Shown here piece after piece: positions 12,704 through 55,825 of a stretch of DNA of 64,000 nt. The notes under the pieces were generated by a model, which was not told the origin of the DNA, did not search any database, and saw only the letters and a list, made by a program, of their open reading frames with translations. The stretch is from a virus: the IMG/VR virus record IMGVR_UViG_3300045988_117710; one strand, given 5' to 3'. Every line of letters begins with the position of its first letter. The stretch's first letter is position 1. A program made the translations under genes and the position numbers.

Positions 12704-12753
12704 TATATATTATAGTAGTATTTTATGATGAATAGTTTATAGGAGTGTTAAAG

Positions 12754-30008: not shown

Positions 30009-30036
30009 AATGCATTTGTAGATAGTAGGAGAAATT

Positions 30037-32251: not shown

Positions 32252-35200
32252 ATGAATGGTAATCAATTAATTACAAAGCATTCTGCTAAATTTGATACTG
32301 TTGAGAAATCTAAAAGACCTGGAGTTCTAGCTACTTTGAGAGGTCCTGTTACTGGATGGAAACCTAATCGTAATGGTAGAACTTATTCTAGGGATTTATG
32401 GGTTAAAGCATTAAATTCTGATTATGTTAAGGAACAAGTTGCTCTTAATCATTTTGTTGGTGAAGCAGATCACCCAGAAGAAAGACTTGAACCAGTAATT
32501 CAAAATATGTCACACGCTATGAGAGATTTTGAATTTGATGATGCTAATCAAGAAGTTATTGCTACTATTGATATTCTAGATACTCCATGTGGAAATATGC
32601 TTAAGACTTTATATGATTATTCTGGAGCTTTAAGTTTTTCTACTAGAGGTTCTGGAGATGTTTTAGAAGATGGTGAAGTTGATCCAGAAACATATCAATT
32701 ATTTGCCATTGATGCTGTTTTAAGACCAAGTTATGCAACAGCTACTGTTAGAAATCTTTTAACTGAAAGTGAATCTTTACATAAGAATAAAGATGTTAAG
32801 AAGGTTCTTGAATCTTATTCTGGTGAGAAAGAATTAGATGAGTCTGTTGATTGGGATTATTTTAATATATTCCATGATATTAACGATAAATATTTACCTG
32901 ATTCTGGTGAAGGTGATAATATGGCCACTCAAACTGTAACAGCTGTTAATAAGTTAGTTTATAAGTGGTATAATGATGGTGATGTATATGATAATTCAAC
33001 TGCTTCTGGTCTAGATGGTTGGGGAAATGATTTATCTGATTATGCTAACTGGCTTGCAAAGAATATAGATGGTTGTAAGGATATTCTAGATAGAATTTTT
33101 GAAATCCATTATGGTGATAATGGTGCTTATGAAGATTTACTTAAGGATTTAGCAAATAATTGTTTAGATGAAAATTTACTTTCTGGTTTAGCTACTCAAC
33201 CTAAGGAAGGTTCTGTTTATGAATGTTCTGGTGATTATTCTTTTGATGAGAGTAGAAACTATGATGAAGAATATGATGAGTCTGAAAACTTAGAAGAGGT
33301 TGTTCGTGTATACGATGATGAGAAAGATTATAGTTCTGAATTAGAGGAAGTATTCAATATTGTTGGTGGTTTTATTAATAATGATTTCAAATCTAATACC
33401 AAGGATTATTTAAGATATTCTGGTTCTACTGATCGTGTAGATAGTAGTAAAGTATTTGATGGTTTAGCTAGTGCATTAGGAGCTGCTGGTTATATTGTTT
33501 CTAAAGATCGTGTTTCTCATGCACATAATATTGGTAACAATAATGCCTATGAAATATTCAAGGATTCTGAATGTATTGGATTCTTAAATGTTAATAGTGG
33601 TATGTATGGTGAAGCATATGTATATGTTGAGAACCTATCTAATGGTAGAGTTGGTGGTGCTTGGGAATTACATTCTAGAGGTACTTCTACTTTCAAAGAA
33701 GGTGAAGAATTAGGTAAGGTTAATACTAAAACTGATTTATCAAAGAAATATATCTTTAATGACAAGGGTGTTGAAAGAACTGTAACTGAAGTTGAACCAC
33801 TTGCTTATAGAGATGGATATAAGTTTAGAGAGATTCTAGATAATGGTTCAGTAGGTAAAGTTGTTCATACTATGAGTAAAGCTGATTTTGATTCTTTAAA
33901 GGAATTAACTGAAGATGCTGATAGTGTTGTAGCAATTCCTGATGATGTTAAGGAAGCTGTTGAAACTGAAGTTTATGATGATAGAAACATTGATGTTAGA
34001 AGTTCTATGTTCAAAGGTAATGATTTTGTAGTTGAAGCTAGAAATGAGTTATCTGAAGATGAATTTACTAAGATTGTTGATAGAATTCAATATCATTTCA
34101 ATAATTATGGTATTGTTTATGACTCTATTGAAGATGATGACAATAATGTAATTGCTATTGATTGTGGTATGTCTGCTAGTGCTTATGAAGAGTACAAAGC
34201 AAATTCTGATGATTATACTCTTAATGATGAATCATTTACTATGTATAATGCTGATACAGATAAAACTGTTAGAGTTTACAAAGATGGTGGTAAATGGGTA
34301 GATGAAGATGGTAATCGTTATATGAGTTACCTAACTAAGTCTGATATTAAGAAGTATTTCAAAGGTAATTGGGTTGAATTAGATGAGTCTGAACAATTAA
34401 ATGAGTATGGTGATACTAAAGATTATTCAGAAGATATTCAAAAGTTATTTAAGAAATGGTTTAAGGATAATGCTGATTTAGGTATTCGTGCTTGGCAGGC
34501 AATGACTGATTCATATCATTTAGATATTGAAACTATGGATAAGGGTGAAGGTTCTGAAAGAAGAAAACTTTACAAGGTTGTTAATAATTCACCATTTGTT
34601 GAAGTTGAAGATTGGGCTGATGAGATTGGTGAGTACATTGCAGATAATTTACATTCATTAAAGTATATCAAACATACTTTCAATGATAAGTCATTCTTTA
34701 GTGATGATGAAACTGCTGGTGATATTACTTGGTACTTTGTTCAACAAATTGGTATGCCAGATTTTGGTGATAATATATTTGATTCAGAGAAGTTATCTGA
34801 AGACAATGAACCTAAGACTACTAAAGAGTTTAGAATTATAGATACTGAAACTGGTAAGATTCTTAAGGTATTTAAAGATGATGAAGAATCTAAAGGTTAT
34901 GAAGAAATGAGAGCCATGGGTGAAGAACTTAAGAAGGCAGGTAAAGAAGATAACTTAATCTATAAAGAGTTTAAGGTTAAGAACAAACCTGAAAGACTTA
35001 AGGAAGATTCTACTTGGGCTGAGATTATGATTGATAGAGCTTTAGAGTCTGGTGTTAGAAAGACACAATATCAAGATGTTGATGGTGTTAAGGATCAGTA
35101 TTATGTAGTTGCTAATTTCCAAGACGTTGGAACTAGAGCAGATGCAAGAAAGTATTGTAAAGCTCAAGGATGGAGTGCTGTTAATGATTCTACTTTAGAT

Positions 35201-36085
35201 AAGGGAGTTATGTATAGATATCCTTTAGTTATTTATATTCCTGCTGATAAGCTTCCAGATGGTGTTCAAGTAATTAATGAAGCTGGTGTTAATTTAGATG
35301 TTAGTGCTGGTGTTGATTTACCAGATGATGCTGTTAGTGGTATTATAAGTGCTCTACCTGCATTACTTGCTTCTGATAAACCAGATTTTGATACATTCTG
35401 TGAAGAGAATTATGAAGCAATTAATAATGCTTATGATGAATGTAAGGCAAGTGATTTAGGTATTTCAGTAGAAGAGTATTGGGCTATGGATGAACCTGTA
35501 GATCCTAAATACTGGGAGATGGTTGCTAGAGATATGTATGAAGATAGTAATAGTTTAGTTGAAGATGTTAATGATTCTCAAGAATACATTGATAAATTCA
35601 ATGAACTATATAGCAAGTATTGTGTTGCTAGTAAAGAAGATGAAGAAGTTATTAAGTCTGAAGTGGTTGATTTACTTACTAATGCACCTGTAGGAACTGC
35701 TTTATATAGACTTTATAAAGATACTTCTAGTGGATGGACTAGTCGTGGTTCTTATTCTAATACTAGAACTGAAATTCATGAATATCTAAAGTCAGGTGAA
35801 AATGAATGGACAATTAATGGTCGTAAGAAAAATGACATGAGAGATGCTATGTTATCAATCTTATATAATCCTGGAGAGTTCATGACTAAGGAAGAAGCAG
35901 AAGCTCAAAAGAAAGAGCAATCTAAGAATGATACTTCTTCTCGTAGAGAGATTGTAAATGTTGGTACTGATTCAGCTGGCAATCCTGTAGGTAAGTCTAC
36001 TAATACTGTAACTTATCCAAATAGAGAAGTTGAGTCTGTTGATTTCTTGGATGATTACTTTGCATATCATAAAGGTAACTTCTAG
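32252..36085 (+). CDS. Giant protein (1277 aa) with an N-terminal HK97-family (S78-like) prohead protease domain fused to a long acidic region
   Basis: The N-terminal about 140 aa, with His in LNHFVGEADHP and Ser in GALSFSTRGSG, fit the His/Ser spacing and sequence flavour of prohead proteases. The rest is D/E-rich with no recognisable domain. Ends DDYFAYHKGNF. Confidence 0.45.
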   Translation: MNGNQLITKHSAKFDTVEKSKRPGVLATLRGPVTGWKPNRNGRTYSRDLWVKALNSDYVKEQVALNHFVGEADHPEERLEPVIQNMSHAMRDFEFDDANQEVIATIDILDTPCGNMLKTLYDYSGALSFSTRGSGDVLEDGEVDPETYQLFAIDAVLRPSYATATVRNLLTESESLHKNKDVKKVLESYSGEKELDESVDWDYFNIFHDINDKYLPDSGEGDNMATQTVTAVNKLVYKWYNDGDVYDNSTASGLDGWGNDLSDYANWLAKNIDGCKDILDRIFEIHYGDNGAYEDLLKDLANNCLDENLLSGLATQPKEGSVYECSGDYSFDESRNYDEEYDESENLEEVVRVYDDEKDYSSELEEVFNIVGGFINNDFKSNTKDYLRYSGSTDRVDSSKVFDGLASALGAAGYIVSKDRVSHAHNIGNNNAYEIFKDSECIGFLNVNSGMYGEAYVYVENLSNGRVGGAWELHSRGTSTFKEGEELGKVNTKTDLSKKYIFNDKGVERTVTEVEPLAYRDGYKFREILDNGSVGKVVHTMSKADFDSLKELTEDADSVVAIPDDVKEAVETEVYDDRNIDVRSSMFKGNDFVVEARNELSEDEFTKIVDRIQYHFNNYGIVYDSIEDDDNNVIAIDCGMSASAYEEYKANSDDYTLNDESFTMYNADTDKTVRVYKDGGKWVDEDGNRYMSYLTKSDIKKYFKGNWVELDESEQLNEYGDTKDYSEDIQKLFKKWFKDNADLGIRAWQAMTDSYHLDIETMDKGEGSERRKLYKVVNNSPFVEVEDWADEIGEYIADNLHSLKYIKHTFNDKSFFSDDETAGDITWYFVQQIGMPDFGDNIFDSEKLSEDNEPKTTKEFRIIDTETGKILKVFKDDEESKGYEEMRAMGEELKKAGKEDNLIYKEFKVKNKPERLKEDSTWAEIMIDRALESGVRKTQYQDVDGVKDQYYVVANFQDVGTRADARKYCKAQGWSAVNDSTLDKGVMYRYPLVIYIPADKLPDGVQVINEAGVNLDVSAGVDLPDDAVSGIISALPALLASDKPDFDTFCEENYEAINNAYDECKASDLGISVEEYWAMDEPVDPKYWEMVARDMYEDSNSLVEDVNDSQEYIDKFNELYSKYCVASKEDEEVIKSEVVDLLTNAPVGTALYRLYKDTSSGWTSRGSYSNTRTEIHEYLKSGENEWTINGRKKNDMRDAMLSILYNPGEFMTKEEAEAQKKEQSKNDTSSRREIVNVGTDSAGNPVGKSTNTVTYPNREVESVDFLDDYFAYHKGNF

Positions 36086-36138: not shown

Positions 36139-37224
36139 ATGAGTACTCATTGTGGTATAGGAATTAAACGTAAGAATGGTGCTGTTGATGCTACTTATTG
36201 TCATTTTGATGGATATCTTGATGGTGTTGGTGAGAATCTTAAGAATTTCTTTAGAGATGCTGATAAGGTAAGTAATCTAGTTAGTATGGGTGATTTAAGA
36301 GGTATTAGTGATTCTGGTGAAGTTGAAGCTTTCGATGATGAAGTTGGTTTTGATGACAAACATTTCAGATCTGTAGAAGAGTTTCTTCAAAGTGATTTAG
36401 GAACTTTAGAATATACTTATTTATTTGATGAAGATACTAATAGATGGTATTTCCTAGGTGGAGAGGATCCAGAAACTGATATTTTTGATGGTTCTTTAGG
36501 AATGTATCATTTAGATAGAGAATCTTTAGAGGAAGATGATAAGTCAACTTTCGAGATATTTAGAAGAACTTATCCTAGAGGACAAAATTCTTATGAAGTA
36601 GTTATTGATGAAACTATTTATAGAGATGGACGTGGTAGAAGACATAGTGACCATAAGACTTATAAGGTTTATAAGAATGGTGAACAAATTTTATTTACTT
36701 CAGTTCCTCAAACTTATAATAAGTGTTTAAGAAATATTGAAGCTGGTAAGTATGATTTTATGTCTGTTAAAGAGATTTCTAATTCTCTTACTGGTGTTAA
36801 TGAAAGTGAGTTCTATGTTAAGGAATTCAATCAAGATGGAACTAATATAGATTATGTTGAGTTTGATAGTCAACATGAAGCAGAAGATTATGCAAGTTCT
36901 TTAAATAAGAAGACAGGACATGAAGTTGCTGTTTATATGAGTTCTAATGATGAATGTATTTCTCTTTATGATAAGTTAGATGAACATTCTTTAAAAGACT
37001 TAGTTGCTGATAATGATAGTGAGGCAATGAGAAAGTTAATTAGTTATTGTGAAAATTTTGGTACTAATGAAGTTTGGGAAGAAACTTTAAAACAATTACT
37101 AAAATATGTTTCTGAAGATGTTATTGAAAATTATATTCATTATGAATTGAATGATTTAGTTTCTGATGAAGTTCCAGAAAGTATTACTGATGACTATTTT
37201 GATTTCCATAATGGAAATTATTAA
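36139..37224 (+). CDS. Acidic hypothetical protein sharing a C-terminal motif with the protease-fusion protein
   Basis: Ends DDYFDFHNGNY versus DDYFAYHKGNF in the 32252 ORF; AGGAGG RBS. Confidence 0.5.
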   Translation: MSTHCGIGIKRKNGAVDATYCHFDGYLDGVGENLKNFFRDADKVSNLVSMGDLRGISDSGEVEAFDDEVGFDDKHFRSVEEFLQSDLGTLEYTYLFDEDTNRWYFLGGEDPETDIFDGSLGMYHLDRESLEEDDKSTFEIFRRTYPRGQNSYEVVIDETIYRDGRGRRHSDHKTYKVYKNGEQILFTSVPQTYNKCLRNIEAGKYDFMSVKEISNSLTGVNESEFYVKEFNQDGTNIDYVEFDSQHEAEDYASSLNKKTGHEVAVYMSSNDECISLYDKLDEHSLKDLVADNDSEAMRKLISYCENFGTNEVWEETLKQLLKYVSEDVIENYIHYELNDLVSDEVPESITDDYFDFHNGNY

Positions 37225-46677: not shown

Positions 46678-46704
46678 ACTAATATGAAAGGAGACATGAC
46701 CCAT

Positions 46705-47031: not shown

Positions 47032-47041
47032 TTAACTGTGA

Positions 47042-47068
47042 AAGGGACTGGTTCTAGTCCCTTTATTT
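47042..47068 (+). terminator. Intrinsic terminator (agggactggttctagtccct plus T-run)
   Basis: 8-bp stem then TTTATTTAT. Confidence 0.55.
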
Positions 47069-47103
47069 ATATATTATTTTAGTTAATATTGAGGAGGATT
47101 TCA

Positions 47104-47412
47104 ATGAATAAGTTATTTGAATCTGTAGAAGGTTGTGACAAATATATTCTTTTAGAAAATGAATATCCTACTTCTATGAGTAGAGAGGAATATATTAGTA
47201 CTTTAAAATCTAAAGTAAACAAGCTTGCAGATGAATTTGCTAGTTTAGCTAATTTCTTTAATTCTTATATTGAAGATTCTGCTACTGGTGAAAGTATTGA
47301 TTGTAATGAGTTTATTTGTATAGCTCAAGAAGAGTACCCATTTGAAAATAGTTTTGATGAGAAAGCATATGAGTTTTCAAACTGGGCTGATAAGATTAAT
47401 GAAATTAAGTAG
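47104..47412 (+). CDS. MNKLFES-leader family protein 1 (103 aa)
   Basis: Starts MNKLFESVEGCDKY; GAGGAGG RBS. Confidence 0.55.
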   Translation: MNKLFESVEGCDKYILLENEYPTSMSREEYISTLKSKVNKLADEFASLANFFNSYIEDSATGESIDCNEFICIAQEEYPFENSFDEKAYEFSNWADKINEIK

Positions 47413-47421
47413 GAGGTAAAT

Positions 47422-50400
47422 ATGAACAAGTTATTTGAATCTGTTGATAATTTATTTGATTCTGGTAAGAGTCTTATTAATGAAGATTATCGTGATGATG
47501 TTATTAATGATTTAGGTATTGAACCTGGTTCTGATGAAGAAGCACAAGTTGATGAAATCCTTAATACAGTTCCAACTGTTTATGATGTTTTCACTTTATC
47601 TCAAGTTGATGTTAATGAGTATAAGTCAGATCTTTATACTACTGTAGAAGATGAAGACCAAGCTTATGATATAGTTGCTGAACTTGGAGCTCAAGGTATT
47701 AATGCTTTTGTAGAAAGTAGAGATGCTAATGAAGATGTTATAGTTCCTAACAATTTCTTATCTGGTCTTTATGCTAGGGATTTGAATGAATCTACTGAAG
47801 GGTTAAGTAAAGAAGATAAGATTTGTCGTTTAGAAGATAAGATTAAGGAATGTAAAGATAGAATTGAAGAGATTGGTAATACTGAATTCTTCGATGATGG
47901 TTCTTATGAAGCAGGTTTAGAGTTAGAAGATAGAGCAATGGAAAGAGCTTCTCTTGAGTATGCTATTTCTGAATATCAAAAGGAAATAGATGAACTTAAA
48001 GGTGAAACTATTAATGAAGGTAGTAAGTTTGATTTATATTCTATCAGAGGAGAAATCAGAGATGATGAAACTGGTAGATTAATGCTTCATACTAAGAATA
48101 AGAATAATGGGTTAGTTGGTTGTGCAAATTTCTTTGGTGATGGTTCAGATATGGTTACTGTTTACGAAGGTAATGGTGATGGTTCTGATGACAAGAGTAT
48201 GGGATTCGATGAGTTCCTAGCAAACTATGATTATGTTCTTGCTGATGAAGATGAACAACCATTTGGTGTTACTGAAGCTTCTGAAGAGAAAGTATTTGTT
48301 AAGAAAGTTAAAGGTCCTAATGGTCAATTCTTTGATGTTTATAAGAAAGATGGTAAGTTTGTGGATGAATATAATAATGAACTTACTGCAGAAGAATTAA
48401 AAGATTATAAGTTAGTTGAAGATGAATCTAATGGTTCTACTGCTATTTTATATCAAGTTACTCCTGGTAAGACTAGAGAATATGGTTTTGAATCTTTAAA
48501 GATGTTAGATAAGTTTGGTATTGAGCTTAGTTTAGATAATTATACTGAAGTTGCTAATATTGATTATAGTAAGTATACAGATGCTACTGATACTAATGCA
48601 ATTCTAGAAGCAATATTCAGAGAAGGTAATACTAATCAAGATATGAGAGTTGAATTCCCTACTATGAGATCTGTTTCTATGTCTGATATTGTTTTATTAG
48701 ATGGTAGATATTACTATTGTGATGACTTTGGTTGGACAGATGTTACTGATCGTTTAACTGGTGTTAATGAGTCTGAAGGTGGAGATTTAAAATCTCAAGT
48801 TGTTGAGTATTTAACTTCTAAATATGGTGAAGGTTTTGAATTAGAAGACAATGTTAATGGTTTTACTAATCAAGATGAAATTATTGATTCTATTGTTAAT
48901 TCTTATGAAGGAAATGAAAATTTAACTGTTGCTGAGTTTATAGATTCTTTAATTGAACCTCATGGTTTAATTGTTGTTAAGTCTAAAGGTTTATCTGAAG
49001 GTACTTCTGCTAAACGTATAGCAAGATATAATGAATTTGATAATGGTAGAGTTTTACATTCTTGGAAAGATATGACAGATGAAGAAGCTGAAGAGCTTGC
49101 TAAACAAAAGTCAATTGAAGATCCAAATAATGTTTATTATGTATGTAATGATAATGTTATGAATCCTACTTCTGATAAGGTTTGGTATAATGGTAAGTCT
49201 TATGATTTCAGTGATGTTAAGTTTAGTGAAACTGGTACTTACTGTGAATCTGAAGAAACTGATCCTAGATTAGATACTTTTGCTGAGTTATATTATAAGT
49301 ATCAAGATGGTGAATCTCATGAATGGACAAGAGAAGAAGTTATTGATTGGATTAATGATGAAATTAAGTTAGGTGATACTTCATTTACTTTAGATGATGA
49401 AACTATTGATTTATTATTAGGTTTCCAACATGATTTACATCAAGCTGATATAGAAGATTTAGATGAAGCTTCTAAACCTTTAGTTAAAGATAAGTTCTAT
49501 ATTGATGGTGTTGGTCCAGAGTTTGATGGTTACCACGATCCTAGTGTTCTTTGGAATGGTTGGGAATGTCCATTCTTTACTAAAGAGGTAGCAGATGAGA
49601 TAACTAAAACTTTTACTGATGAGTCTGTTACTTTTGAATATGATGAAGCTGGTAAGAAATATATAATTACTTGGAATGGTGAAGATACTGAAGAAGTTCC
49701 TATGACACGTCGTGAAACTGTTGATGGTGAGTTAGATTTATTCCCATTAGGTTATTATGGTTGGTGTTGGAATAAAGCTTCTGATGATTTAGAAGAGTCT
49801 AATAAATTAGATGAAACAGCTTGGAAGGGTACTCTTAAGTCTGGTTCTGCTTTAAGAGCCCTAATTAATAATCCAGATGATACTATTGAATATTATCAAG
49901 CTGTATTAGATAAGATTAAAGATGTTTGTAATGAAGCAATTCCAATGTGTGATGATGAATATTATGCTAATGGATTCCAATCTTTAATAGATGATATTGA
50001 ATGTATTTATTATGATGAAGAATTAGATGAAGGTAATGTTGATTATATTCTAGATGGTCTTTGGGATTGGGCTGATGGTGCTAAGTTATTCGTTGCCTTA
50101 GGTGAATCTGAAGTAGTTATGGAAGAAGATTCTAATTATACTAATAAATATCGTTGTGTTACTGCAGGATATGATACTGTAGAAACATTTGATTCAAAGG
50201 ATGATGCAATTGCATTTGCTAAAGAGAATGACAGGGTGTATTCAGTAATGTCTGATATTTATCAAGGTGATATGTTAATTAGTGTTGGATTAAATGATAT
50301 TTGGTCTAAGTATGATGAAGATTTAACTGAAGCTTCTAGTGTAGATGGTTTAGTTACTAAGTTTGTTGAGTTACCATATGGTGATTTCAAAGCAAATAAT

Positions 50401-50652
50401 GCCATTGGTGTTCTTAATGATGGTACAGTGTTTTGGGTAGATAGTGAGAATGAAGCTTATTCAGTTCCTTGTTCTTACGATGAGTTAAAGAGAGCAATGT
50501 ATGGTAAAGAACAAGATGATTGGATGGAATTTTCTCAAAGTTTCACTAGAATAGAAGACCCACTAGAAACTAAGATTATGGTTGCTATTGGACGTTACTC
50601 TGAAGATGTTCTAGATTATCATGAAACTTTTAAAGATGGGTTACCATTCTAA
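47422..50652 (+). CDS. MNKLFES-leader family protein 2 (1076 aa giant, acidic)
   Basis: Starts MNKLFESVDNLFDSGKSLINEDYRDDVINDLG; no recognisable catalytic motifs. Confidence 0.6.
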   Translation: MNKLFESVDNLFDSGKSLINEDYRDDVINDLGIEPGSDEEAQVDEILNTVPTVYDVFTLSQVDVNEYKSDLYTTVEDEDQAYDIVAELGAQGINAFVESRDANEDVIVPNNFLSGLYARDLNESTEGLSKEDKICRLEDKIKECKDRIEEIGNTEFFDDGSYEAGLELEDRAMERASLEYAISEYQKEIDELKGETINEGSKFDLYSIRGEIRDDETGRLMLHTKNKNNGLVGCANFFGDGSDMVTVYEGNGDGSDDKSMGFDEFLANYDYVLADEDEQPFGVTEASEEKVFVKKVKGPNGQFFDVYKKDGKFVDEYNNELTAEELKDYKLVEDESNGSTAILYQVTPGKTREYGFESLKMLDKFGIELSLDNYTEVANIDYSKYTDATDTNAILEAIFREGNTNQDMRVEFPTMRSVSMSDIVLLDGRYYYCDDFGWTDVTDRLTGVNESEGGDLKSQVVEYLTSKYGEGFELEDNVNGFTNQDEIIDSIVNSYEGNENLTVAEFIDSLIEPHGLIVVKSKGLSEGTSAKRIARYNEFDNGRVLHSWKDMTDEEAEELAKQKSIEDPNNVYYVCNDNVMNPTSDKVWYNGKSYDFSDVKFSETGTYCESEETDPRLDTFAELYYKYQDGESHEWTREEVIDWINDEIKLGDTSFTLDDETIDLLLGFQHDLHQADIEDLDEASKPLVKDKFYIDGVGPEFDGYHDPSVLWNGWECPFFTKEVADEITKTFTDESVTFEYDEAGKKYIITWNGEDTEEVPMTRRETVDGELDLFPLGYYGWCWNKASDDLEESNKLDETAWKGTLKSGSALRALINNPDDTIEYYQAVLDKIKDVCNEAIPMCDDEYYANGFQSLIDDIECIYYDEELDEGNVDYILDGLWDWADGAKLFVALGESEVVMEEDSNYTNKYRCVTAGYDTVETFDSKDDAIAFAKENDRVYSVMSDIYQGDMLISVGLNDIWSKYDEDLTEASSVDGLVTKFVELPYGDFKANNAIGVLNDGTVFWVDSENEAYSVPCSYDELKRAMYGKEQDDWMEFSQSFTRIEDPLETKIMVAIGRYSEDVLDYHETFKDGLPF

Positions 50653-50665
50653 TTAGGAGGTTAGT

Positions 50666-50998
50666 ATGAATAGTTTATTTGAAAGTGTTGACGCTTGTTT
50701 TGAATCTGATGTTATAGTTGAATCAGATTCAAAACTTGGTTCTATTTTTGTTGCTGAGGTTGGTTACAATGGTGTAGTCGGTACTTGTAGAGGTGCTGGT
50801 TCTACTCCTGAAGAAGCCAAAGCAAATGTTATTAAATTCTTCAAGCAAGTTTATCCTAGTGTATTAGAAGATTTATTAACTAAAGAAGATTATCAAGATG
50901 TTTCTGAAGATAAAGCTCTTGAAGATTGGTATGGTATCAATGTATTCGATTTAAGTTCTGGAGCTACTTGTGAGAGTGGAGAAACTTTAAAAGGATAA
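50666..50998 (+). CDS. MNKLFES-leader family protein 3 (110 aa)
   Basis: Starts MNSLFESVDACFESD. Confidence 0.55.
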   Translation: MNSLFESVDACFESDVIVESDSKLGSIFVAEVGYNGVVGTCRGAGSTPEEAKANVIKFFKQVYPSVLEDLLTKEDYQDVSEDKALEDWYGINVFDLSSGATCESGETLKG

Positions 50999-51001
50999 TT
51001 T

Positions 51002-51331
51002 ATGAATAAGTTATTTGAAAGTATAGATAATTTATTTGAATCTGATATTCTAACTCTAGATGACTTCCTTAGTCATCTAGATGCCTATATGGCAGAGCAA
51101 TCTATTTTCTTTGAACCATTAGGTGGTTATATTGTCTATGATGGAGAGTATAGGTTTGTTTATTATGAATTATTAGATACTAATACAACTTATAGTCGTG
51201 ATGCAAAGAGAAAGCATTATCGTATATTAAGTTATGATGGTTCTACTTTTGTTGAGAATCGAATTACAGCTCCTATGTATAATGACTATATTAGATTAGG
51301 CATGGTTAGGGAGTATAGTAGAGAGGTATAG
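51002..51331 (+). CDS. MNKLFES-leader family protein 4 (109 aa)
   Basis: Starts MNKLFESIDNLFESD. Confidence 0.55.
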   Translation: MNKLFESIDNLFESDILTLDDFLSHLDAYMAEQSIFFEPLGGYIVYDGEYRFVYYELLDTNTTYSRDAKRKHYRILSYDGSTFVENRITAPMYNDYIRLGMVREYSREV

Positions 51332-51340
51332 GAGATTATT

Positions 51341-51838
51341 ATGAATAAGTTATTTGAGTCTGTTGATGACTTATATGAATCTGGAAGAAGTTTAGTTGTT
51401 GAAGATACTGAAGATTTTGTAGATGATGTTATTACTGATCCTTATGATTTAGGGTTTACTGAAGAAGATTTACAAAATAATCTTAATGTAAAGTTTACTG
51501 AATATGGTGAATTAGATAGTGCTGAACAAGAAGACTTTCCAGAATGTGATGCAGTATTATATTTTGATGTTTACTATGGAGATTCTAAAGTTGGTGAAAC
51601 TCAATGTTATGGTGCTAAAGAAGATAATGTTGAAGAGTATTTTCCTCAAGTAATTGAAAATCTTGTTGGTAATACTTTTGGGTTAGACTTTAGTGAAATT
51701 AAGAAAGAAGAAAAACCTTTAGGTGAATCTATTGAATATTGTTTAGTTTTACCAGAAGTAAAATCTGATGAAGAAATGAATAAGGTAATTGAAGCTCTTA
51801 AGGATTTAGGTTACGAAGCTTATTCTTGGACTCGTTAA
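51341..51838 (+). CDS. MNKLFES-leader family protein 5 (165 aa)
   Basis: Starts MNKLFESVDDLYESGRSLVVEDTEDFVDDVITD; about 40 aa co-linear with protein 2. Confidence 0.55.
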   Translation: MNKLFESVDDLYESGRSLVVEDTEDFVDDVITDPYDLGFTEEDLQNNLNVKFTEYGELDSAEQEDFPECDAVLYFDVYYGDSKVGETQCYGAKEDNVEEYFPQVIENLVGNTFGLDFSEIKKEEKPLGESIEYCLVLPEVKSDEEMNKVIEALKDLGYEAYSWTR

Positions 51839-51842
51839 TATA

Positions 51843-51870
51843 AGACTAGTTAATCTAGTCTTTTTCTTTT
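51843..51870 (+). terminator. Intrinsic terminator (agactag-ttaat-ctagtct plus T-run)
   Basis: Perfect 7-bp stem then TTTTTCTTTT. Confidence 0.65.
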
Positions 51871-51910: not shown

Positions 51911-53719
51911 ATGGATAATACTAATTTCCTAGATAAGATTATTGATTATAACAAATCTCAATATATTTCGAAAGCTACTAAGATTAGAGAGATAGTAGCA
52001 CCAGAAGTTTGGATTAACGATCCTTACTATTGTGGTGAGGATGGTAAGTTTTTATATCCATTCTGGAAGAAACACTTTGTTGAGATTTTTTCTCGTCCAA
52101 ATGAGAAGAGAATTAATGAGATTATAATTACTGGTTCTTTAGGAACTGGTAAGACTACATTCATGACTTTCTGCTTCTTAAGACTTTTATATGAGCTTAG
52201 TTGTTATGATTGTCCACAGATTCTTTATAATTTGATGTCAAGTACTTCTATTGTTCTTATGTATTTGTCTATCAATAAGGATATAGCAGAGAATACTGGT
52301 TATGGGGATTTGAGACAGAGAATTGATACTATTCCATACTTCATTGAGAATTATCCTAGAAATCAAAGATTGTCTAATGATATTGAGTTCCCACAATCTA
52401 ATATTCGTGTAGGTTCTGGTTCTAGAGCTTCTCATGCAATTGGTACTAACTTAATTGCTGCGGCTCTTGACGAATCTAACTTCAAAGGTACGGGTGAAGC
52501 TGCTACTGATGTCAACTCAATGTCTAAAGCACAACAAGTTTATAATGCTTTACGTAGACGTGGAGAAAACCGTTTTACCGTTGGTGGTATTGATTATTCA
52601 TTGTCTATCTTACTTTCTTCTGCAACTACTTCAAACTCTTTTACAGAGGCACGTATTGCTCATACTGCTTCTAATGAGCATGTTTATCATATTAATGCTA
52701 AGGTTTATGAAGTTAAACCTGCAGGAACTTATAGTAGTGAGAAGTTTATAGTATTTATGGGTAATGACCAATTGGATCCTACTCTTGTTGAGACTGTTCC
52801 AGCTCTTAATAATATTATGGATTCGGTTGGATTACCAAGATTTGCAGATACAGTCAATCTCGTAGATAGTATTAACTCATTGAGAGAAGATATTAGGGCA
52901 ATGTTTGAACTTGTTCCTATGAATTTTATTGAGTCTTTTAGAACAGATGTTGTTAAGTCTTTACAAGATATTTGTGGTGTTCCTGTTAACCCTATTGGTA
53001 GATTGTTTACAGCAAAGAGATATTATAATGAGTGTATTGACAATCAAGTTACACATCCATTTATTCAAGATGAGTTTATTCTTTCTACTGGTTCATCTGT
53101 TACTGGTATTGAGTATTTAAGGTCTGATTGGAAACCTTTAGAACCACATAAGACTAGATTTGTTCATATCGACCAATCTACAGCATCCGATAAGACTGGT
53201 ATTTGTATGGGATTTATAGACCATTTTGAGAATATTAATGGTGAGAATAGACCGGTTATTTATGTAGATTTTATGTTAGCTGTTAATCCACCATTGGCAC
53301 CAGAAAAGATTCATATTGCCAAGTGTCGTCAGTTAGTTTTAGATATAGCCAAGAAGTTTAATCTTAAGATTGGTAAATTCACTTACGATACCTTTGCATC
53401 TCAAGAGTCTGTTCAACAGCTTCAACAAGAAGGTATTAATGCTGATTTTCAATCAGTGGATAGAACAGTTGATGCTTATCTTGAGTTGTGTGATTTATTT
53501 TATGAGAAGAGAATTCATATCTATTCTTATCCGAAGTTTGAGAAGGAGTTCTTTAATTTACAATACTATCGTGATAGGAAGAAGATAGACCACTTACCAG
53601 AGTTTTCAAAGGACGTTTCTGATGCTGTTGCAGGAATGATTCATAATTGTACTCATAATGATGCTCAGTTGGATGCACTTCGTAAGATGGATGCTGAAAA
53701 CATTCTTAAGTGGTTATAA
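51911..53719 (+). CDS. terL: Terminase large subunit
   Basis: N-terminal ATPase P-loop (GSLGTGKTT), Walker B-like LIAAALDESNF, and a C-terminal RNase-H-like nuclease region (FVHIDQSTASDKTG); about 600 aa. Confidence 0.65.
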   Translation: MDNTNFLDKIIDYNKSQYISKATKIREIVAPEVWINDPYYCGEDGKFLYPFWKKHFVEIFSRPNEKRINEIIITGSLGTGKTTFMTFCFLRLLYELSCYDCPQILYNLMSSTSIVLMYLSINKDIAENTGYGDLRQRIDTIPYFIENYPRNQRLSNDIEFPQSNIRVGSGSRASHAIGTNLIAAALDESNFKGTGEAATDVNSMSKAQQVYNALRRRGENRFTVGGIDYSLSILLSSATTSNSFTEARIAHTASNEHVYHINAKVYEVKPAGTYSSEKFIVFMGNDQLDPTLVETVPALNNIMDSVGLPRFADTVNLVDSINSLREDIRAMFELVPMNFIESFRTDVVKSLQDICGVPVNPIGRLFTAKRYYNECIDNQVTHPFIQDEFILSTGSSVTGIEYLRSDWKPLEPHKTRFVHIDQSTASDKTGICMGFIDHFENINGENRPVIYVDFMLAVNPPLAPEKIHIAKCRQLVLDIAKKFNLKIGKFTYDTFASQESVQQLQQEGINADFQSVDRTVDAYLELCDLFYEKRIHIYSYPKFEKEFFNLQYYRDRKKIDHLPEFSKDVSDAVAGMIHNCTHNDAQLDALRKMDAENILKWL

Positions 53720-54061: not shown

Positions 54062-55825
54062 ATGTCTGGACCTTTAAACGATAAATTATTGGACGAGGCA
54101 GTCAACAAGACTCTTAATGAAAAGAGTTATGAGACTAACAAGTCTTTTATTGCTGGTATGTCTTTATCACAATTTAGTGACTTTATTCACTCTGACCAAA
54201 TGTCAGATTTAAATGATAAGGCACTTTATGATGAGATGTTACTAGATGCCACAGTTCGTAATGTAATTGATGCTTATGTTGCTGAGATTGTAATTCGTGA
54301 TACTAATACAAATCATATTTGTACTGTTTTATCTGAAGATGCTAAACTTGTCGAAGAGTTAAACTCTTTTCTATTTGATAATATCAATATAGATGCTTTA
54401 GCAAATAATATTGTATTAAGAATGTTAGCTTATGGATGTGCTCCATGTGAGTTAGCTTATATTGATTCAACTACAGATTCTCAATGGCAATTATTCTCTG
54501 AAAGTGAGAAGTTAAAAGATATGACTTCTGAAAACTTATTAGAGAGTTTATCCAAGAAGGATGTTAAAGAGTTTCTTGTTGAAGGTAAGAAACTACGAGT
54601 TGTTTCTAATAAGAAAGCTCTTAAGGAAGATGTTCTTGAGTTAAGAAAGAAACAGTTCCCTGTTAGATGGTATTTAAATCAATTACCTATTTGGTCTTTG
54701 AAGGTTTTAAATTCTAAGGGTAAAGATATCGCTTATTTAGATCCAACTGTAACTGATAGAGTTTATGATGGAAGAACTCTTGTTCCTTTTATGAACATTT
54801 CTTCTAATGATTCAACTAGTATTAGTTCAACAGATGGTTCTGATAGTTATACTATATCAGCATCTGAAAGTTTTCTTAAACCTGCTAGAAAAGCGTATAG
54901 AGTTTTAAGTTCTTTTGAGGATTTATTATTAATCCATGCACTTACTACTTCAATTAACTATCGTATTTTTAGTGTTGAAGTTGGTAATTTAGATGAGAAA
55001 CAAACTCCAGCTCTTTTAGGAGATATTAAGAAGAGAATTAATGAGAATGAATCATTCAATTTAGAGACTTCATTCTATAATGCTTCTATGACAGGTGTTC
55101 CTCTAGGAGCGTCAATCCTTATTCCAACAAGAAATGGGGTTGGAACTATTTCAGTTCAACAAATTGATAATAGTTTTGGTACTAGTGAATTAGGTGATTT
55201 TAATTATTTCAAGAATAAATTAGCAACTGCTTTACATAGTAATTCACTTTTAACTGGTTCTACTGATAATGCAGGTGGACTTGATTCTGGTGGTTCTATG
55301 TCTGTTCTTGATGATAGAGCATCACAATATATAGAGTTATATAGAAATATATTTGCTTCTGGTATTGAATCTTTATGTGATTATTATTTAAGATTAACTA
55401 GAACAGAGTCTGCTTATTCAAAGTTAACTACTTTTAGTATTAGACTTGCTAGAAATATAGATGCTGAACAAGTTAATTTCTTAAAGGGACAATCTGAAGC
55501 TGCAAGTTCTCTACAACAAGTTGTTAGAGCACTTAAAGATTTAGGTTTAGATATGAAGAATTTCTCTGATACTCAATTATTACTAGTTCGTAAATTCTTG
55601 GGTAATGAGATTGCAGATTCTTTAGCTCTTGAGATGGAGAGTGCTAGTTCATTGTCTAGTCGCAAACCTCCTATTGTAGGAGATGATTCTACTGGTGGTG
55701 AGTTAGGTTCTACTGGTGATGATTCATTTGATTCATTCGAAGTAAGTGATGAAGAAGTTGACAATGCAGTTTCTGGTTCTGATGAAGAACAATTAACTGT
55801 TGAAGAACCTGGTATTGAATTATAA
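54062..55825 (+). CDS. Putative portal protein
   Basis: Position immediately downstream of terL, size 587 aa, acidic C-terminal tail; no motif-level support. Confidence 0.3.
   Translation: MSGPLNDKLLDEAVNKTLNEKSYETNKSFIAGMSLSQFSDFIHSDQMSDLNDKALYDEMLLDATVRNVIDAYVAEIVIRDTNTNHICTVLSEDAKLVEELNSFLFDNINIDALANNIVLRMLAYGCAPCELAYIDSTTDSQWQLFSESEKLKDMTSENLLESLSKKDVKEFLVEGKKLRVVSNKKALKEDVLELRKKQFPVRWYLNQLPIWSLKVLNSKGKDIAYLDPTVTDRVYDGRTLVPFMNISSNDSTSISSTDGSDSYTISASESFLKPARKAYRVLSSFEDLLLIHALTTSINYRIFSVEVGNLDEKQTPALLGDIKKRINENESFNLETSFYNASMTGVPLGASILIPTRNGVGTISVQQIDNSFGTSELGDFNYFKNKLATALHSNSLLTGSTDNAGGLDSGGSMSVLDDRASQYIELYRNIFASGIESLCDYYLRLTRTESAYSKLTTFSIRLARNIDAEQVNFLKGQSEAASSLQQVVRALKDLGLDMKNFSDTQLLLVRKFLGNEIADSLALEMESASSLSSRKPPIVGDDSTGGELGSTGDDSFDSFEVSDEEVDNAVSGSDEEQLTVEEPGIEL

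What the first reader, a model, noticed from the sequence alone, without database searches (positions are those of the whole stretch)
47104..51838. Tandem array of five proteins with a shared MNKLFESVDNLFES N-terminal leader and unrelated bodies, directly upstream of terL
Five consecutive genes of 103, 1076, 110, 109 and 165 aa begin with almost the same 15-40 residues, MNKLFES(V/I)D(N/D)L(F/Y)(D/E)SG(K/R)SL..ED. The first 18 nt, atgaataagttatttgaa, are identical in most copies, while the rest of each protein is unrelated. They are packed 9-13 bp apart, each with its own strong RBS. This layout mirrors the T4 internal-protein locus, where IPI, IPII and IPIII share a cleavable capsid-targeting sequence. 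The leader even contains two L-x-E sites (KLFE/S and NLFE/S) of the kind the T4-type prohead protease cuts. The window also holds a protease-domain protein (32252-36085), and the array sits immediately before the large terminase. The hypothesis is a cassette of capsid-targeted, probably co-ejected proteins, plausibly hypervariable anti-defence effectors, addressed by a common leader. Alternatives are a shared secretion or localisation tag, or a hotspot where new genes are captured behind a fixed translation-initiation region.
Basis: partly seen in the sequence, partly recalled or inferred. Interest (0 to 1): 0.85.

Follow-up and report, generated by a model that had tools for sequence, protein, structure and literature searches.

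The report
Shared-leader cargo gene cassette in gut phage
Five neighbouring genes of an uncultivated large human-gut phage carry the same detachable 8-14-residue N-terminal tag on unrelated protein modules; it most likely addresses them into the phage head and marks where the head protease cuts, as in phage T4's internal proteins, but no experiment has tested this.

Summary
Five adjacent + strand genes (102, 1076, 110, 109, 165 aa) start MN(K/S)LFES(V/I)(D/E). Four continue x(L/C)(F/Y)(E/D)S. Nothing else in them is alike.

The tag is conserved at the protein level, is not part of the fold, and stays N-terminal while modules are inserted or lost behind it. Three near-identical strains carry three different arrays.

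Two other phage contigs carry comparable sets of leader genes with a diverged tag (MNLYESIKxNLKES). In each, the run ends in a ~1000-aa mosaic protein.

The tag's hydrophobic-x-Glu-Ser motif recurs at module boundaries inside such mosaic proteins. The window encodes a T4 gp21-type (S77) prohead protease. That protease's own ~1000-aa C-terminal extension is built from modules that sit in mosaic proteins elsewhere, at least three of them leader-bearing.

Best reading (confidence ~0.6): a capsid-targeting and cleavage leader for head cargo, combined with polyvalent-protein modularity.

Packaging, cleavage, ejection and anti-defence roles are untested. The proteins are very acidic, unlike T4's basic internal proteins. 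Adjacency to terL is not conserved. I rate it a new variant of a known kind.

The parts
47041..47064 (+). Terminator-like hairpin plus T-run that closes the preceding unit (the NUMOD4-like ORF)
   Evidence: 10-pair stem AAAGGGACTGGTTCTAGTCCCTTT followed by a T-rich tail.
47070..47084 (+). Class-B promoter-like motif TATATTATTTTAGTT, 34 nt upstream of gene 1
   Evidence: TATATT-N(1-6)-TAG(T/A) occurs 12 times on the + strand and once on the - strand. Eight of the 12 lie 28-41 nt upstream of gene starts, including 12745 (tape-measure-like), 29739 (operon ending in the protease), 51911 (terL), 59050 and 63167. That these are late promoters is inference.
47104..47412 (+). Gene 1, 102 aa; half-leader MNKLFESV then an unrelated acidic body (pI 4.19)
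   Evidence: No Pfam or PHROG hit. C-terminally truncated to 93 aa in strains L004/L005; absent as a separate gene in L092.
47422..50652 (+). Gene 2, 1076 aa; leader MNKLFESVDNLFDS followed by about 10 shuffled modules (a polyvalent-type mosaic protein, pI 4.07, net charge -158)
   Evidence: 736 library proteins at E<=1e-3, each matching separate stretches (1-133, 201-285, 331-446, ~520-600, 684-798, 791-899, 946-1071). Strain variants are 610 aa and 682 aa.
47422..47463 (+). 14-residue leader of gene 2: two heptads KLFESVD / NLFDSGK, amphipathic if helical
   Evidence: helical hydrophobic moment about 0.6; residues 1-19 have pLDDT below 50 while residues 52-126 are confident; strain L092 has a ~95-aa module inserted between this leader and the first module.
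48448..48744 (+). YodL-like module of gene 2 (residues 343-441)
   Evidence: PF14191, E=1.6e-8, 35.8 bits (cut-off 24); the stand-alone homologue P0144 scores 2.1e-22. This module lies within a stretch missing in strain L004.
48979..49221 (+). 'RIARYxEFDNG' module of gene 2 (residues ~520-600), preceded by the linker GLSE|GT
   Evidence: about 90 homologues, in proteins of 85-1387 aa. A hydrophobic-x-E-(G/S/A/T) motif lies within the 20 upstream residues in 52 of 93 cases, against 14% of random windows. AF2 pLDDT 79 with the linker residues at low confidence. No Pfam, PDB, phage-isolate or plasmid match.
49492..49815 (+). phrog_9945 module of gene 2 (residues 691-798, WNGWECPFFTKEVA)
   Evidence: E=7.8e-12; many stand-alone homologues of 100-120 aa.
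50666..50998 (+). Gene 3, 110 aa; leader MNSLFESVDACFES plus one module
   Evidence: the body is 44% identical (E=1.3e-24) to an internal module of P0027 (996 aa), where it is flanked by GLFNE|SE and NTLKE|SE. Absent from strains L004, L005 and L092.
51002..51331 (+). Gene 4, 109 aa; leader MNKLFESIDNLFES plus an orphan body
   Evidence: no family hits. Absent from strains L004, L005 and L092.
51341..51838 (+). Gene 5, 165 aa; leader MNKLFESVDDLYES plus a very acidic body (pI 4.05, 27% D+E)
   Evidence: It is the only array member present in every strain seen (L003, L004, L005, L092).
51842..51862 (+). Terminator-like hairpin that closes the array
51911..53719 (+). Large terminase (neighbour, not part of the cassette's function)
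   Evidence: tblastn to annotated TerL, 30% identity, E=3e-62; in five relatives terL is preceded by a CHAP lysin and a small ORF, not by a leader array.
32252..36085 (+). Prohead protease (S77 domain, residues ~1-210) fused to a ~1070-aa acidic extension made of cargo-type modules. Motifs NLLTES, KVLES and ELDESVD lie directly after the protease domain
   Evidence: Peptidase_S77 and phrog_207; the sole PDB hit is T4 gp21 (5jbl); motif positions 170, 185 and 195; extension residues 187-426 and 522-713 are 41-64% identical to modules in P0030, P0038, P0057, P0066 and P0097, which also carry modules of gene 2.
36139..37224 (+). 361-aa acidic protein next to the protease. One of its modules (residues ~214-282) sits directly behind a leader in another phage. 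Its C-terminal tail resembles that of the protease fusion
   Evidence: 54% identity to residues 5-73 of the L090 289-aa leader protein; also present in P0066 and P0097; tails ...DDYFDFHNGNY and ...DDYFAYHKGNF.
29739..32236 (+). Three genes upstream of the protease in the same apparent unit: 89 aa, a 447-aa extremely acidic protein (pI 4.05, with a KKSKKK tract), and a 287-aa protein carrying ILNESVD. Candidate core or scaffold proteins
   Evidence: No family hits. The role is inferred from position only.
54062..55825 (+). T4-type portal protein, placing the phage in the T4-like head-assembly lineage
   Evidence: phrog_213, E=6e-20. Portal_T4 PF07230; 27-30% identity to gp20 homologues.

Best explanation
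The five genes form one probably late transcription unit. Its products carry a short, unstructured or amphipathic N-terminal leader of two heptads, KLFESVD-NLFESxx.

The leader most likely does two jobs, as the capsid-targeting sequence of T4's internal proteins does. It docks the protein onto the assembling prohead core. It also presents hydrophobic-x-Glu|Ser sites that the phage's T4 gp21-type (S77) prohead protease cuts.

The same motif separates modules inside the 1076-aa member. That protein would therefore be parcelled into domain-sized pieces inside the head. The pieces would stay in the capsid and leave with the DNA at infection.

The cassette and the mosaic protein draw on one shared pool of small modules. 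Modules are exchanged by recombination at leaders and linkers. A second carrier for this pool is the protease itself, which bears a ~1070-aa extension of such modules.

**Shown here:** the tag's modularity, its protein-level conservation, its recurrence in other phages, the protease type, motif enrichment at module boundaries, module sharing with the protease fusion, and strain-level cassette turnover.

**Inferred:** docking, cleavage, retention in the head, ejection, and any effector role.
For: 1. **Protein-level selection.** Leader Ser7 is encoded by TCT in three copies and AGT in two. There are 20 synonymous codon-pair differences among leaders. Identity collapses immediately upstream and downstream.

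2. **Detachable tag.**
   - AF2 gives pLDDT below 50 for residues 1-19 and 83-94 for the following domain.
   - Strain L092 has a ~95-aa module inserted between leader and first module.
   - Gene 3's body is an internal, leaderless module in P0027.
   - P0029, P0030 and P0142 put different modules behind the same leader.

3. **Recurrence.**
   - L089 has five ORFs starting M(N/K/R)LY(E/K)(S/D)I/L..NLKE(S/T/A), plus a weaker sixth. They are interspersed with other genes and end in a 996-aa mosaic protein.
   - L090 has six consecutive MNLY(E/S)(S/N)I..NL.. genes of 74-998 aa.

4. **Protease of the right kind.** Pfam Peptidase_S77 and phrog_207; the only PDB sequence hit is T4 gp21. Published T4 sites are IAE-10 of the CTS MKTYQEFIAE, plus ITE-6 and LTE-619 of Alt.

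5. **The motif marks module boundaries.**
   - Hydrophobic-x-E-[GSAT] lies within 20 residues upstream of the RIARY module in 52 of 93 cases, against 14% of random windows. The Glu sits at fixed spacing, -5 in 22 cases.
   - It occurs 656 times, against 356 +/- 19 in shuffles, across 150 module homologues. Control motifs are at 0.83-1.24x.
   - The linker residues have low AF2 confidence.

6. **Guilt by fusion.** Modules of the protease's C-terminal extension and of the adjacent 361-aa protein occur in other phages in mosaic proteins alongside gene 2's modules. Three of these (P0030, P0066, P0097) have leader-type N-termini. The L090 289-aa protein carries the 361-aa protein's module directly behind its leader. 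Three leader-like motifs follow the protease domain.

7. **Possible co-regulation.** The array is bracketed by terminator-like hairpins. It shares a promoter-like motif with terL, the tape-measure-like gene and the protease operon.

8. **Hypervariability.** There are three architectures among strains: 102|1076|110|109|165, 93|610|165 and 682|165. Among the loci whose TerL was compared, identity is 97% (L092) or the same 602-aa product is called. Junctions fall at linkers or leaders.

9. **Polyvalent-protein context.** A YodL-like domain, typical of polyvalent (delivered) proteins.

10. **Precedent.** T-even internal proteins are diverse apart from a conserved CTS. SPN3US ejection paralogues gp53 and gp54 share an identical 15-residue N-terminus containing protease motifs.
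Against: - There is no experimental datum. No virion proteome exists for this clade, and no isolate or GenBank phage carries the leader or the RIARY module.
- All array proteins are very acidic (pI 4.05-4.6). T4's internal proteins are basic.
- The leader has no significant sequence similarity to the T4 CTS, only a shared pattern.
- Hydrophobic-x-E-small is a short motif. It is also 1.47-fold enriched in the TerL control set. In the window it is only modestly enriched per protein (empirical p 0.01-0.05).
- The conserved 'xE-GT' before the RIARY module could be a domain-capping element and not a cut site.
- The promoter classes do not split cleanly into replication and structural genes. Portal and baseplate hub follow class A.
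- The major capsid protein was not found, so its propeptide could not be compared.
- S77 membership rests on a marginal Pfam score (28.7 against 27).
Confidence: 0.6

Rival explanations
1. The proteins are assembly-only core or scaffold components. The leader docks these very acidic proteins into the prohead core, but the protease degrades them at their many hydrophobic-x-Glu sites and they are expelled before DNA packaging, like T4 gp22, gp67 and gp68. They would never reach the host as effectors.
For: The extreme acidity (pI ~4.05-4.6) is shared with the 447-aa and 287-aa proteins upstream of the protease. Multiple internal candidate sites exist. T4 core proteins are cleaved to fragments that leave the head.
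Against: - The modules are compact folded domains of 80-120 aa between the sites. I infer these are too large to leave through capsid pores.
- The cassette is dispensable and hypervariable between strains, which is unlike a scaffold.
- The same modules occur widely as stand-alone small proteins and in polyvalent-type mosaics with a YodL domain.
Confidence: 0.15
2. The leader is a recombination and expression cassette only. The conserved 5' end with its RBS would be a portable homology arm and efficient translation start that lets the phage capture and swap genes. It would have no targeting or cleavage role.
For: The strain difference that removes genes 3 and 4 has its junction inside the 55-nt RBS-plus-leader homology. 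Genes are tightly packed, each with its own RBS.
Against: - Conservation is at the amino-acid level: TCT/AGT serine codons and 20 synonymous differences.
- The 25 nt upstream are not conserved beyond the Shine-Dalgarno sequence.
- In L089 and L090 the peptide pattern persists with a different peptide sequence, hence different DNA.
- The same peptide motif recurs internally at module boundaries, where no translation starts.
Confidence: 0.08
3. The leader is a different address or stability tag: a signal for secretion, membrane or other subcellular localisation, or a degron or adaptor-binding tag. It would be unrelated to the capsid.
For: The leader is predicted amphipathic if helical (moment about 0.6). 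Many short N-terminal tags work this way. No direct evidence of packaging exists.
Against: - The sequence has no hydrophobic core and no basic n-region, and it is net negative, so it is not Sec, Tat or lipoprotein-like (direct reading).
- This reading does not explain why the motif recurs at internal module junctions.
- It does not explain why the same modules are fused to the prohead protease.
- It does not explain the motif's fit to Glu-specific T4-type sites.
Confidence: 0.07
4. The leader is a relic of tandem duplication. The five genes would be old paralogues whose bodies diverged beyond recognition while the N-terminus stayed conserved as part of the fold.
For: Tandem layout. Genes 2 and 5 share 33 residues.
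Against: - Sizes range from 102 to 1076 aa.
- Gene 3's body is an internal module elsewhere without the leader.
- A module is inserted between leader and body in L092.
- The leader is outside the predicted fold.
- The 'extra' similarity between genes 2 and 5 belongs to the first module, not the leader.
Confidence: 0.03

Closest known systems
T4 / T-even internal proteins (IPI, IPII, IPIII, Alt) with the capsid-targeting sequence MKTYQEFIAE, cleaved by prohead protease gp21
   Same: - A short (6-20 residue) N-terminal propeptide is shared by otherwise unrelated proteins.
- The propeptide ends in hydrophobic-x-Glu.
- The phage has a gp21-family (S77) protease and a T4-type portal.
- The gene set is diverse apart from the tag.
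   Different: - No significant sequence similarity between the leaders; the leader here is two acidic heptads.
- The cargo is strongly acidic, not basic.
- The motif also partitions a 1076-aa multi-module protein.
- The protease itself carries ~1070 aa of cargo-type modules.
- Packaging and cleavage are demonstrated for T4 and not here.
Polyvalent proteins of phages and conjugative elements (Iyer, Burroughs, Anand, de Souza, Aravind 2017, PMC5512222)
   Same: - A large mosaic protein built of many small shuffled domains.
- It includes a YodL-like domain.
- It is encoded beside virion genes and predicted to be delivered with the DNA.
   Different: - No zincin-like (MPTase) processing peptidase domain was detected. 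Processing would be in trans, by the prohead protease, at hydrophobic-x-Glu linkers.
- That paper lists YodL as confined to conjugative-element polyvalent proteins; here it is in a phage.
- The same modules also exist as single-module genes, each with its own leader.
Ejection and inner-body proteins of giant phages phiKZ, 201phi2-1 and SPN3US, processed by gp175/gp245 (S80) at (S/A/G)-x-Glu
   Same: - Many head-internal proteins are cut after Glu, some at several sites.
- Paralogues gp53 and gp54 of SPN3US share an identical 15-residue N-terminus containing protease motifs.
- The protease autoprocesses a C-terminal propeptide thought to target it into the prohead.
   Different: - Most of those propeptides are 100-130 residues long; here the leader is 8-14.
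- P3 is small (A/S/G) there and hydrophobic here.
- The protease match here is to S77, not S80.
- Those proteins are true paralogue families; here the bodies are unrelated.

Membership tests
T4-type CTS-bearing internal (ejection) proteins | A short N-terminal propeptide shared by proteins that are otherwise unrelated | tested here: met
   8-14 shared residues; bodies show no BLASTP similarity.
T4-type CTS-bearing internal (ejection) proteins | The propeptide ends at a gp21-type site (Leu/Ile-x-Glu, cleaved after Glu) | tested here: met
   At sequence level only. L-F-E|S at residues 4-7 in all five genes. L-F-E|S or L-Y-E|S at residues 11-14 in genes 4 and 5; C-F-E in gene 3; L-F-D in gene 2; absent in gene 1.
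T4-type CTS-bearing internal (ejection) proteins | The phage encodes a gp21-family (Peptidase S77) prohead protease | tested here: met
   PF03420, 28.7 bits against a cut-off of 27; phrog_207, 8.7e-32; the only PDB hit is T4 gp21 (5jbl), E=0.46. Marginal by Pfam but consistent across three searches.
T4-type CTS-bearing internal (ejection) proteins | Leader homologous in sequence to the T4 CTS (MKTYQEFIAE) | tested here: not met
   Direct comparison shows only a loose pattern: Met, polar or basic residue, aromatic residue, Glu, Ile/Val. The L089 variant MKLYESI is the nearest. No alignment statistics are possible at this length.
T4-type CTS-bearing internal (ejection) proteins | Basic, DNA-associated mature proteins (IPI-III) | tested here: not met
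   pI 4.05-4.59; net charge -8 to -158.
T4-type CTS-bearing internal (ejection) proteins | Physically incorporated into proheads, cleaved by the protease, ejected with the DNA | not testable with these tools
   Needs virion mass spectrometry and N-terminomics. No cultured relative is known.
T4-type CTS-bearing internal (ejection) proteins | Expressed with the head genes (late) | tested here: inconclusive
   the array shares a promoter-like motif with terL, the tape-measure-like gene and the protease operon. Portal and baseplate hub follow the other motif class, and timing is unknown.
Polyvalent proteins (Iyer et al. 2017) | One polypeptide with many (2-15) domains that recur in varied combinations in phage or conjugative-element proteins | tested here: met
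   at least 7 separately matching stretches and 736 homologues in proteins of 78-1387 aa; module order varies. This applies to gene 2 only.
Polyvalent proteins (Iyer et al. 2017) | Contains domains catalogued for the class (for example YodL, ArdC-N, MPTase, LPDs) | tested here: met
   YodL-like PF14191. No other catalogued domain was detected; most modules are absent from Pfam.
Polyvalent proteins (Iyer et al. 2017) | An embedded zincin-like metallopeptidase (MPTase), proposed to process the protein | tested here: not met
   no peptidase domain in the 1076-aa protein at E<=1. This is a frequent feature of the class, not a universal one.
Giant-phage (phiKZ/SPN3US-type) processed ejection proteins | Long (more than 100 residue) N-terminal propeptides cut at (S/A/G)-x-Glu by an S80 protease | tested here: not met
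   The leader is 8-14 residues with a hydrophobic P3. The protease matches S77. S80 is not a separate Pfam test here.
Sec / Tat / lipoprotein signal peptides | A positively charged n-region followed by a hydrophobic core of at least ~7 residues | tested here: not met
   Direct reading of MNKLFESVDNLFES: no hydrophobic run longer than 2 residues, and a net negative charge. No signal-peptide predictor was available.

The most novel reading that the evidence does not exclude
A whole clade of uncultivated large gut phages may use one simple peptide grammar, hydrophobic-x-Glu|Ser heptads, both as the address label and as the cut mark for a combinatorial library of hundreds of small effector modules. 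Modules would be loaded into the capsid either behind a leader, as beads on ~1000-aa polyproteins, or hitched to the prohead protease itself. They would then be parcelled by that protease and injected with the DNA. The prohead would act as a polyprotein-processing and effector-delivery compartment, and the motif would let ejected effectors be read straight from metagenomes.
Probability: 0.35. Interest if true: 0.8.

Novelty: new variant of a known kind. Interest (0 to 1): 0.66.

Why it matters
- **A second capsid-targeting leader family.** If the leader works as proposed, it would be a second, sequence-unrelated family of this kind outside the T-even phages, found in abundant but uncultured human-gut phages.
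- **Two ideas joined.** It would link T4's CTS-tagged internal proteins with Aravind-type polyvalent proteins. The tag and the inter-module linker would be the same protease-readable element.
- **A way to read cargo from sequence.** It gives a sequence rule for listing candidate injected proteins directly from metagenomes. The 736 homologues of gene 2's modules are almost all unannotated.
- **An unusual carrier.** It points to a prohead protease that carries about 1000 residues of cargo.
- **A possible engineering handle.** The leader could serve for packaging foreign proteins into such phages.
- **Testability.** The hypothesis can be tested with existing virome metaproteomes by searching for peptides that begin after the predicted Glu sites.

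Tried and rejected
**Searches that gave nothing useful.**
- A profile of the leaders alone against the 5.8-billion protein set. With 46-aa N-termini it found 1 candidate and no hit, so one search was wasted.
- All five proteins concatenated as one query. Low-complexity word matches swamped the candidate list. Only the 1076-aa protein itself and P0027 came back, though P0027 proved useful.
- TerL and the protease domain against IMG/VR: no relatives.
- blastn of the locus against GenBank phages: only one 44-nt (1% of the query) chance-level match.
- tblastn of the RIARY module against phage isolates and plasmids: nothing.
- Leader patterns against 185,579 bacterial and archaeal genomes: nothing. 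The lineage appears neither as prophage nor in binned genomes.
- Literature search for the leader strings: one irrelevant hit.

**Leads considered and dropped.**
- The leader DNA pattern in IMG/VR gave L001 and L002. I first read L001 as a capsid protein starting with the leader. One search showed 102 in-frame codons upstream. The string lies about 91 residues inside a PAU-type major capsid protein. With about one chance hit expected, by my rough estimate, I treat both as coincidence.
- The JGI metagenome scan returned 79 loci, nearly all chance or unrelated families. Only L035 and L044 look genuine, and both are contigs of about 1 kb.

**Not found.**
- The major capsid protein was not located in the window or in 10 kb beyond it.

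**Inconclusive.**
- The per-protein count of hydrophobic-x-ES in the window is only weakly significant.

Full report
**1. What is in the sequence**

Window 47104-51838 holds five consecutive + strand ORFs of 102, 1076, 110, 109 and 165 aa. Their N-termini are MNKLFESVEGCDKY, MNKLFESVDNLFDS, MNSLFESVDACFES, MNKLFESIDNLFES and MNKLFESVDDLYES.

- The 18-mer ATGAATAAGTTATTTGAA has 8 matches at up to 3 mismatches, against 0.9 expected. None of 100 shuffles reached 8.
- An all-vs-all BLASTP of 62 window proteins finds no paralogy anywhere except these N-termini.
- DNA identity is 69-86% over the first 42 coding nt. It falls to background immediately upstream (apart from the Shine-Dalgarno sequence) and downstream.

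**2. The phage**

The window has 32% G+C and all genes lie on one strand. It comes from human-gut metagenome contigs of up to 179 kb. It has no close relative among GenBank phages.

- Head-assembly genes are of the T4 type:
  - Portal: PF07230 and phrog_213.
  - Prohead protease domain at the start of a 1277-aa ORF: Peptidase_S77 at 28.7 bits against a cut-off of 27, and phrog_207 at 8.7e-32. The only PDB sequence match is T4 gp21.
  - The nearest isolates by these two proteins are Bacillus SP-15, vB_BceM-HSE3, Listeria LIS04 and Streptococcus GXN1, at 27-46% identity.
- terL follows the array.
- Upstream of the array lie DNA polymerase, primase, an HU-like protein and a NUMOD4-like ORF.

**3. 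The leader is a protein-level, detachable tag**

- Ser7 is TCT in three copies and AGT in two. Twenty codon pairs differ synonymously. Selection therefore acts on the peptide, not on the RNA or DNA.
- An AlphaFold2 model of residues 1-132 of the 1076-aa protein used 5 sequences and reached mean pLDDT 74.6. It gives pLDDT below 50 for residues 1-19 and for the C-terminal LNESTEGL linker. The domain between them is confident at 83-94.
- In strain L092 a ~95-aa module plus an acidic spacer sits between the 14-residue leader and that first domain. This also shows that the 33-residue similarity between genes 2 and 5 belongs to the first module, not to the leader.
- The body of gene 3 recurs at 44% identity (E=1.3e-24) as an internal module of P0027 (996 aa), with no leader. 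There it is flanked by GLFNE|SE and NTLKE|SE.
- Other library proteins place different modules directly behind the same leader: P0029, P0030 and P0142.

**4. The same layout recurs elsewhere with a diverged leader**

- **L089** (23-kb contig, with T4-type baseplate and M23 tape-measure genes like the window's) has five ORFs starting M(N/K/R)LY(E/K)(S/D)(I/L)..NLKE(S/T/A), plus a weaker sixth. They are interspersed with other genes. The last is the 996-aa mosaic protein.
- **L090** (112-kb IMG/VR contig) has six consecutive MNLY(E/S)(S/N)I..NL.. genes of 74, 81, 89, 256, 289 and 998 aa.
- In all three phages, small single-module leader genes accompany one ~1000-aa mosaic protein.
- Within L090, the body of the 74-aa gene is the C-terminal module of the 289-aa neighbour.
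- The 289-aa protein's first module, directly behind its leader, is 54% identical to residues 214-282 of the window's 361-aa protein, which sits next to the protease.
- Window-type leaders also occur on P0028, P0029, P0030, P0032 and P0142, and on two short metagenome contigs, L035 and L044.

**5. Leader motif equals linker motif**

A full HMMER search with the 1076-aa protein found 736 proteins at E<=1e-3. Each matches one or a few separate stretches: 1-133, 201-285, 331-446 (YodL-like), ~520-600, 684-798, 791-899 and 946-1071. The protein is therefore a mosaic of mobile modules.

- For the commonest module (RIARYxEFDNG, 93 occurrences), hydrophobic-x-E-[GSAT] lies within the 20 upstream residues in 52 cases. 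It is found in 14% of random windows.
- Leu/Ile-x-E-[GSA] occurs in 41 cases, against 8% of random windows. The Glu sits at a fixed -5 in 22 cases, or at about -9. This holds whether the module is internal or N-terminal.
- Across the 150 best homologues the motif occurs 656 times, against 356 +/- 19 in composition-preserving shuffles.
- Control motifs are much less enriched: Asp for Glu 1.23x, charged P1' 0.83x, small P3 0.95x. A TerL control set is enriched 1.47x.
- The linker residues are low-confidence in both AF2 models.
- Other leader types on these homologues end the same way: MKIKKLNE|S/G/A, MKFIKE|S, MRLIEKS....
- The published T4 gp21 sites are of the same form: IAE-10 of the CTS MKTYQEFIAE, and ITE-6 and LTE-619 of Alt.

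**6. Link to the head**

The 1277-aa protease ORF consists of a ~210-aa S77 domain followed by NLLTES, KVLES and ELDESVD at residues 170-200. An acidic extension of about 1070 aa comes next.

- Residues 187-426 and 522-713 of that extension are 41-64% identical to modules in P0030, P0038, P0057, P0066 and P0097. These proteins also carry modules of gene 2. P0066 and P0097 also carry a module of the 361-aa protein.
- P0030, P0066 and P0097 have leader-type N-termini; P0038 and P0057 do not.
- A domain covalently attached to a prohead protease should enter the prohead with it. In T4, gp21 is a component of the prohead core.
- Finding modules of the same pool behind leaders in other phages is the strongest computational argument that the leader is a functional equivalent of that carrier. 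This step is inference.

**7. Expression unit**

Terminator-like hairpins bracket the array at 47041-47064 and 51842-51862.

- Thirty-four nt upstream of gene 1 is the motif TATATT-N-TAG(T/A). The motif is almost entirely on the + strand (12 sites against 1).
- It also lies 28-41 nt upstream of the tape-measure-like gene, the operon ending in the protease, terL, and two further units.
- A second motif, TCGTATAAT (17 on + strand, 0 on -), precedes helicase, clamp loader, polymerase, primase, SSB and SbcD. It also precedes the 361-aa gene, the portal unit and the baseplate hub.
- Co-regulation of the array with virion genes is therefore suggested but not established.

**8. Turnover**

Strains carry three architectures: 102|1076|110|109|165 (window and L003), 93|610|165 (L004 and L005) and 682|165 (L092). 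L092's TerL is 97% identical to the window's, apart from an intein. The other loci have a TerL of the same 602-aa length.

- The 610-aa form differs from the 1076-aa form by two in-frame gaps. Their junctions are 10-bp microhomologies at Glu-Ala-Ser linkers.
- The absence of genes 3 and 4 has its junction inside the 55-nt RBS-plus-leader repeat.
- Leaders and linkers thus also serve as recombination points.

**9. What argues against the main model, and what is missing**

- Nothing here shows packaging, cleavage or ejection.
- The array proteins are very acidic: pI 4.05-4.6, and net charge -158 for the large one. T4's internal proteins are basic. The acidity is shared with the proteins around the protease and with 59520-63124. 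This leaves room for a scaffold-like, degraded-and-expelled role.
- The motif is short, and part of its enrichment is generic.
- S77 membership is marginal by Pfam score.
- The capsid protein was not found, so its propeptide could not be compared.
- Five loci with TerL 57-67% identical have no leader array within the available 5-10 kb either side of terL. The position next to terL therefore carries no weight.

**10. Comparison with what is known**

- The system works like the T4 CTS and internal-protein system. It also resembles the shared N-termini of the SPN3US ejection paralogues gp53 and gp54.
- The large member fits the definition of a polyvalent protein.
- It is not a sequence member of the T4 CTS family, because the leaders are not homologous and the charge is opposite.
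- It lacks the MPTase peptidase often found in polyvalent proteins.
- Its propeptide length and P3 preference differ from the phiKZ/SPN3US type.
- The new elements are:
  - the leader family itself;
  - the identity of leader and inter-module linker;
  - free exchange of modules between single-module leader genes, ~1000-aa mosaics and the protease's own extension;
  - occurrence in an uncultured gut phage lineage.
- I rate it a new variant of a known kind, with interest about 0.66 and confidence about 0.6 in the capsid-targeting and cleavage model.

Noticed in passing
window 36040-36085 and 37180-37224; also 50600-50652: The 1277-aa protease fusion and the adjacent 361-aa protein end in near-identical tails (...ESVDFLDDYFAYHKGNF and ...ESITDDYFDFHNGNY). 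The 1076-aa array protein ends in a looser version (...DVLDYHETFKDGLPF). This may be a C-terminal docking or propeptide element like the C-terminal propeptide of the SPN3US protease.
   Followed up: no
window 59520-61172 and 61172-63124: Two very acidic proteins (pI 4.05 and 4.15) whose lengths vary between strains (543-551 aa and 581-650 aa). They start MNNFYDSIDKVDF and MKVKVNKLVKEAD. These resemble the array leader and the 'MKIKKLNE|A' leader type seen on module homologues. They may be further cargo genes.
   Followed up: partly
whole window, + strand (for example 47070, 51883, 12706, 29711; and 36108, 39797, 41854, 55872): Two strand-specific promoter-like motif classes, both placed 12-64 nt upstream of gene starts. 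TATATT-N(1-6)-TAG(T/A) has 12 sites on the + strand and 1 on the - strand. TCGTATAAT has 17 on + and 0 on -. They probably mark two temporal gene classes.
   Followed up: partly
window 58521-58982: A phage-encoded LuxS (S-ribosylhomocysteinase, the AI-2 synthase), Pfam E=3.5e-42. It is conserved in all strain contigs seen.
   Followed up: no
window 37251-38723: A phage-encoded Cpn60/TCP-1 family chaperonin (Pfam E=7.5e-25). It lies just downstream of the protease and the 361-aa gene.
   Followed up: no
L085 14995-19866; L086 16684-21803; L088 17508-20819: Phages with TerL 57-64% identical carry 3-4 genes each that start MK(I/L)(I/V)R..IFETNSSSTHS. Only the first ~21-30 residues are shared between several of them. 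This is another shared-N-terminus family; it contains I-F-E|T, and its meaning is unknown.
   Followed up: partly
L004 6553-7354 (between window 46616 and 46619); window 46684-47031: Strains L004 and L005 carry an extra 216-aa Cys-rich (zinc-ribbon-like) ORF just upstream of the NUMOD4-like ORF that precedes the array. The region upstream of the cassette is therefore also an insertion hotspot.
   Followed up: no
P0001 / L092 3493-6132; P0016; P0023: TerL of some relatives is interrupted by an intein with a LAGLIDADG homing endonuclease (PF14890, PF14528). The window's TerL is intein-free.
   Followed up: no
L001 4954-5754: A PAU-type jumbo-phage major capsid protein contains the exact string MNKLFESVD about 91 residues from its start, near where a propeptide cut might be expected. 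It is probably coincidence (about one chance hit expected in that scan, by my rough estimate).
   Followed up: yes
window 12745-16137 and 17457-20504: Two ~1000-aa tail proteins carry cell-wall hydrolase domains: Peptidase_M23 at residues 930-1026 and phage tail lysozyme at residues 442-596. They sit within a T4-like baseplate module.
   Followed up: no
L085 17642-18904 and 21108-21548; L086 17405-18220 and 19447-20712; L087 16034-16846; L088 16368-17186 and 19028-20293: Related phages encode PARP-like, Tad3-like (anti-Thoeris family) and Thg1-like proteins a few kb downstream of terL. This suggests a counter-defence island in the position where the window has other genes.
   Followed up: no
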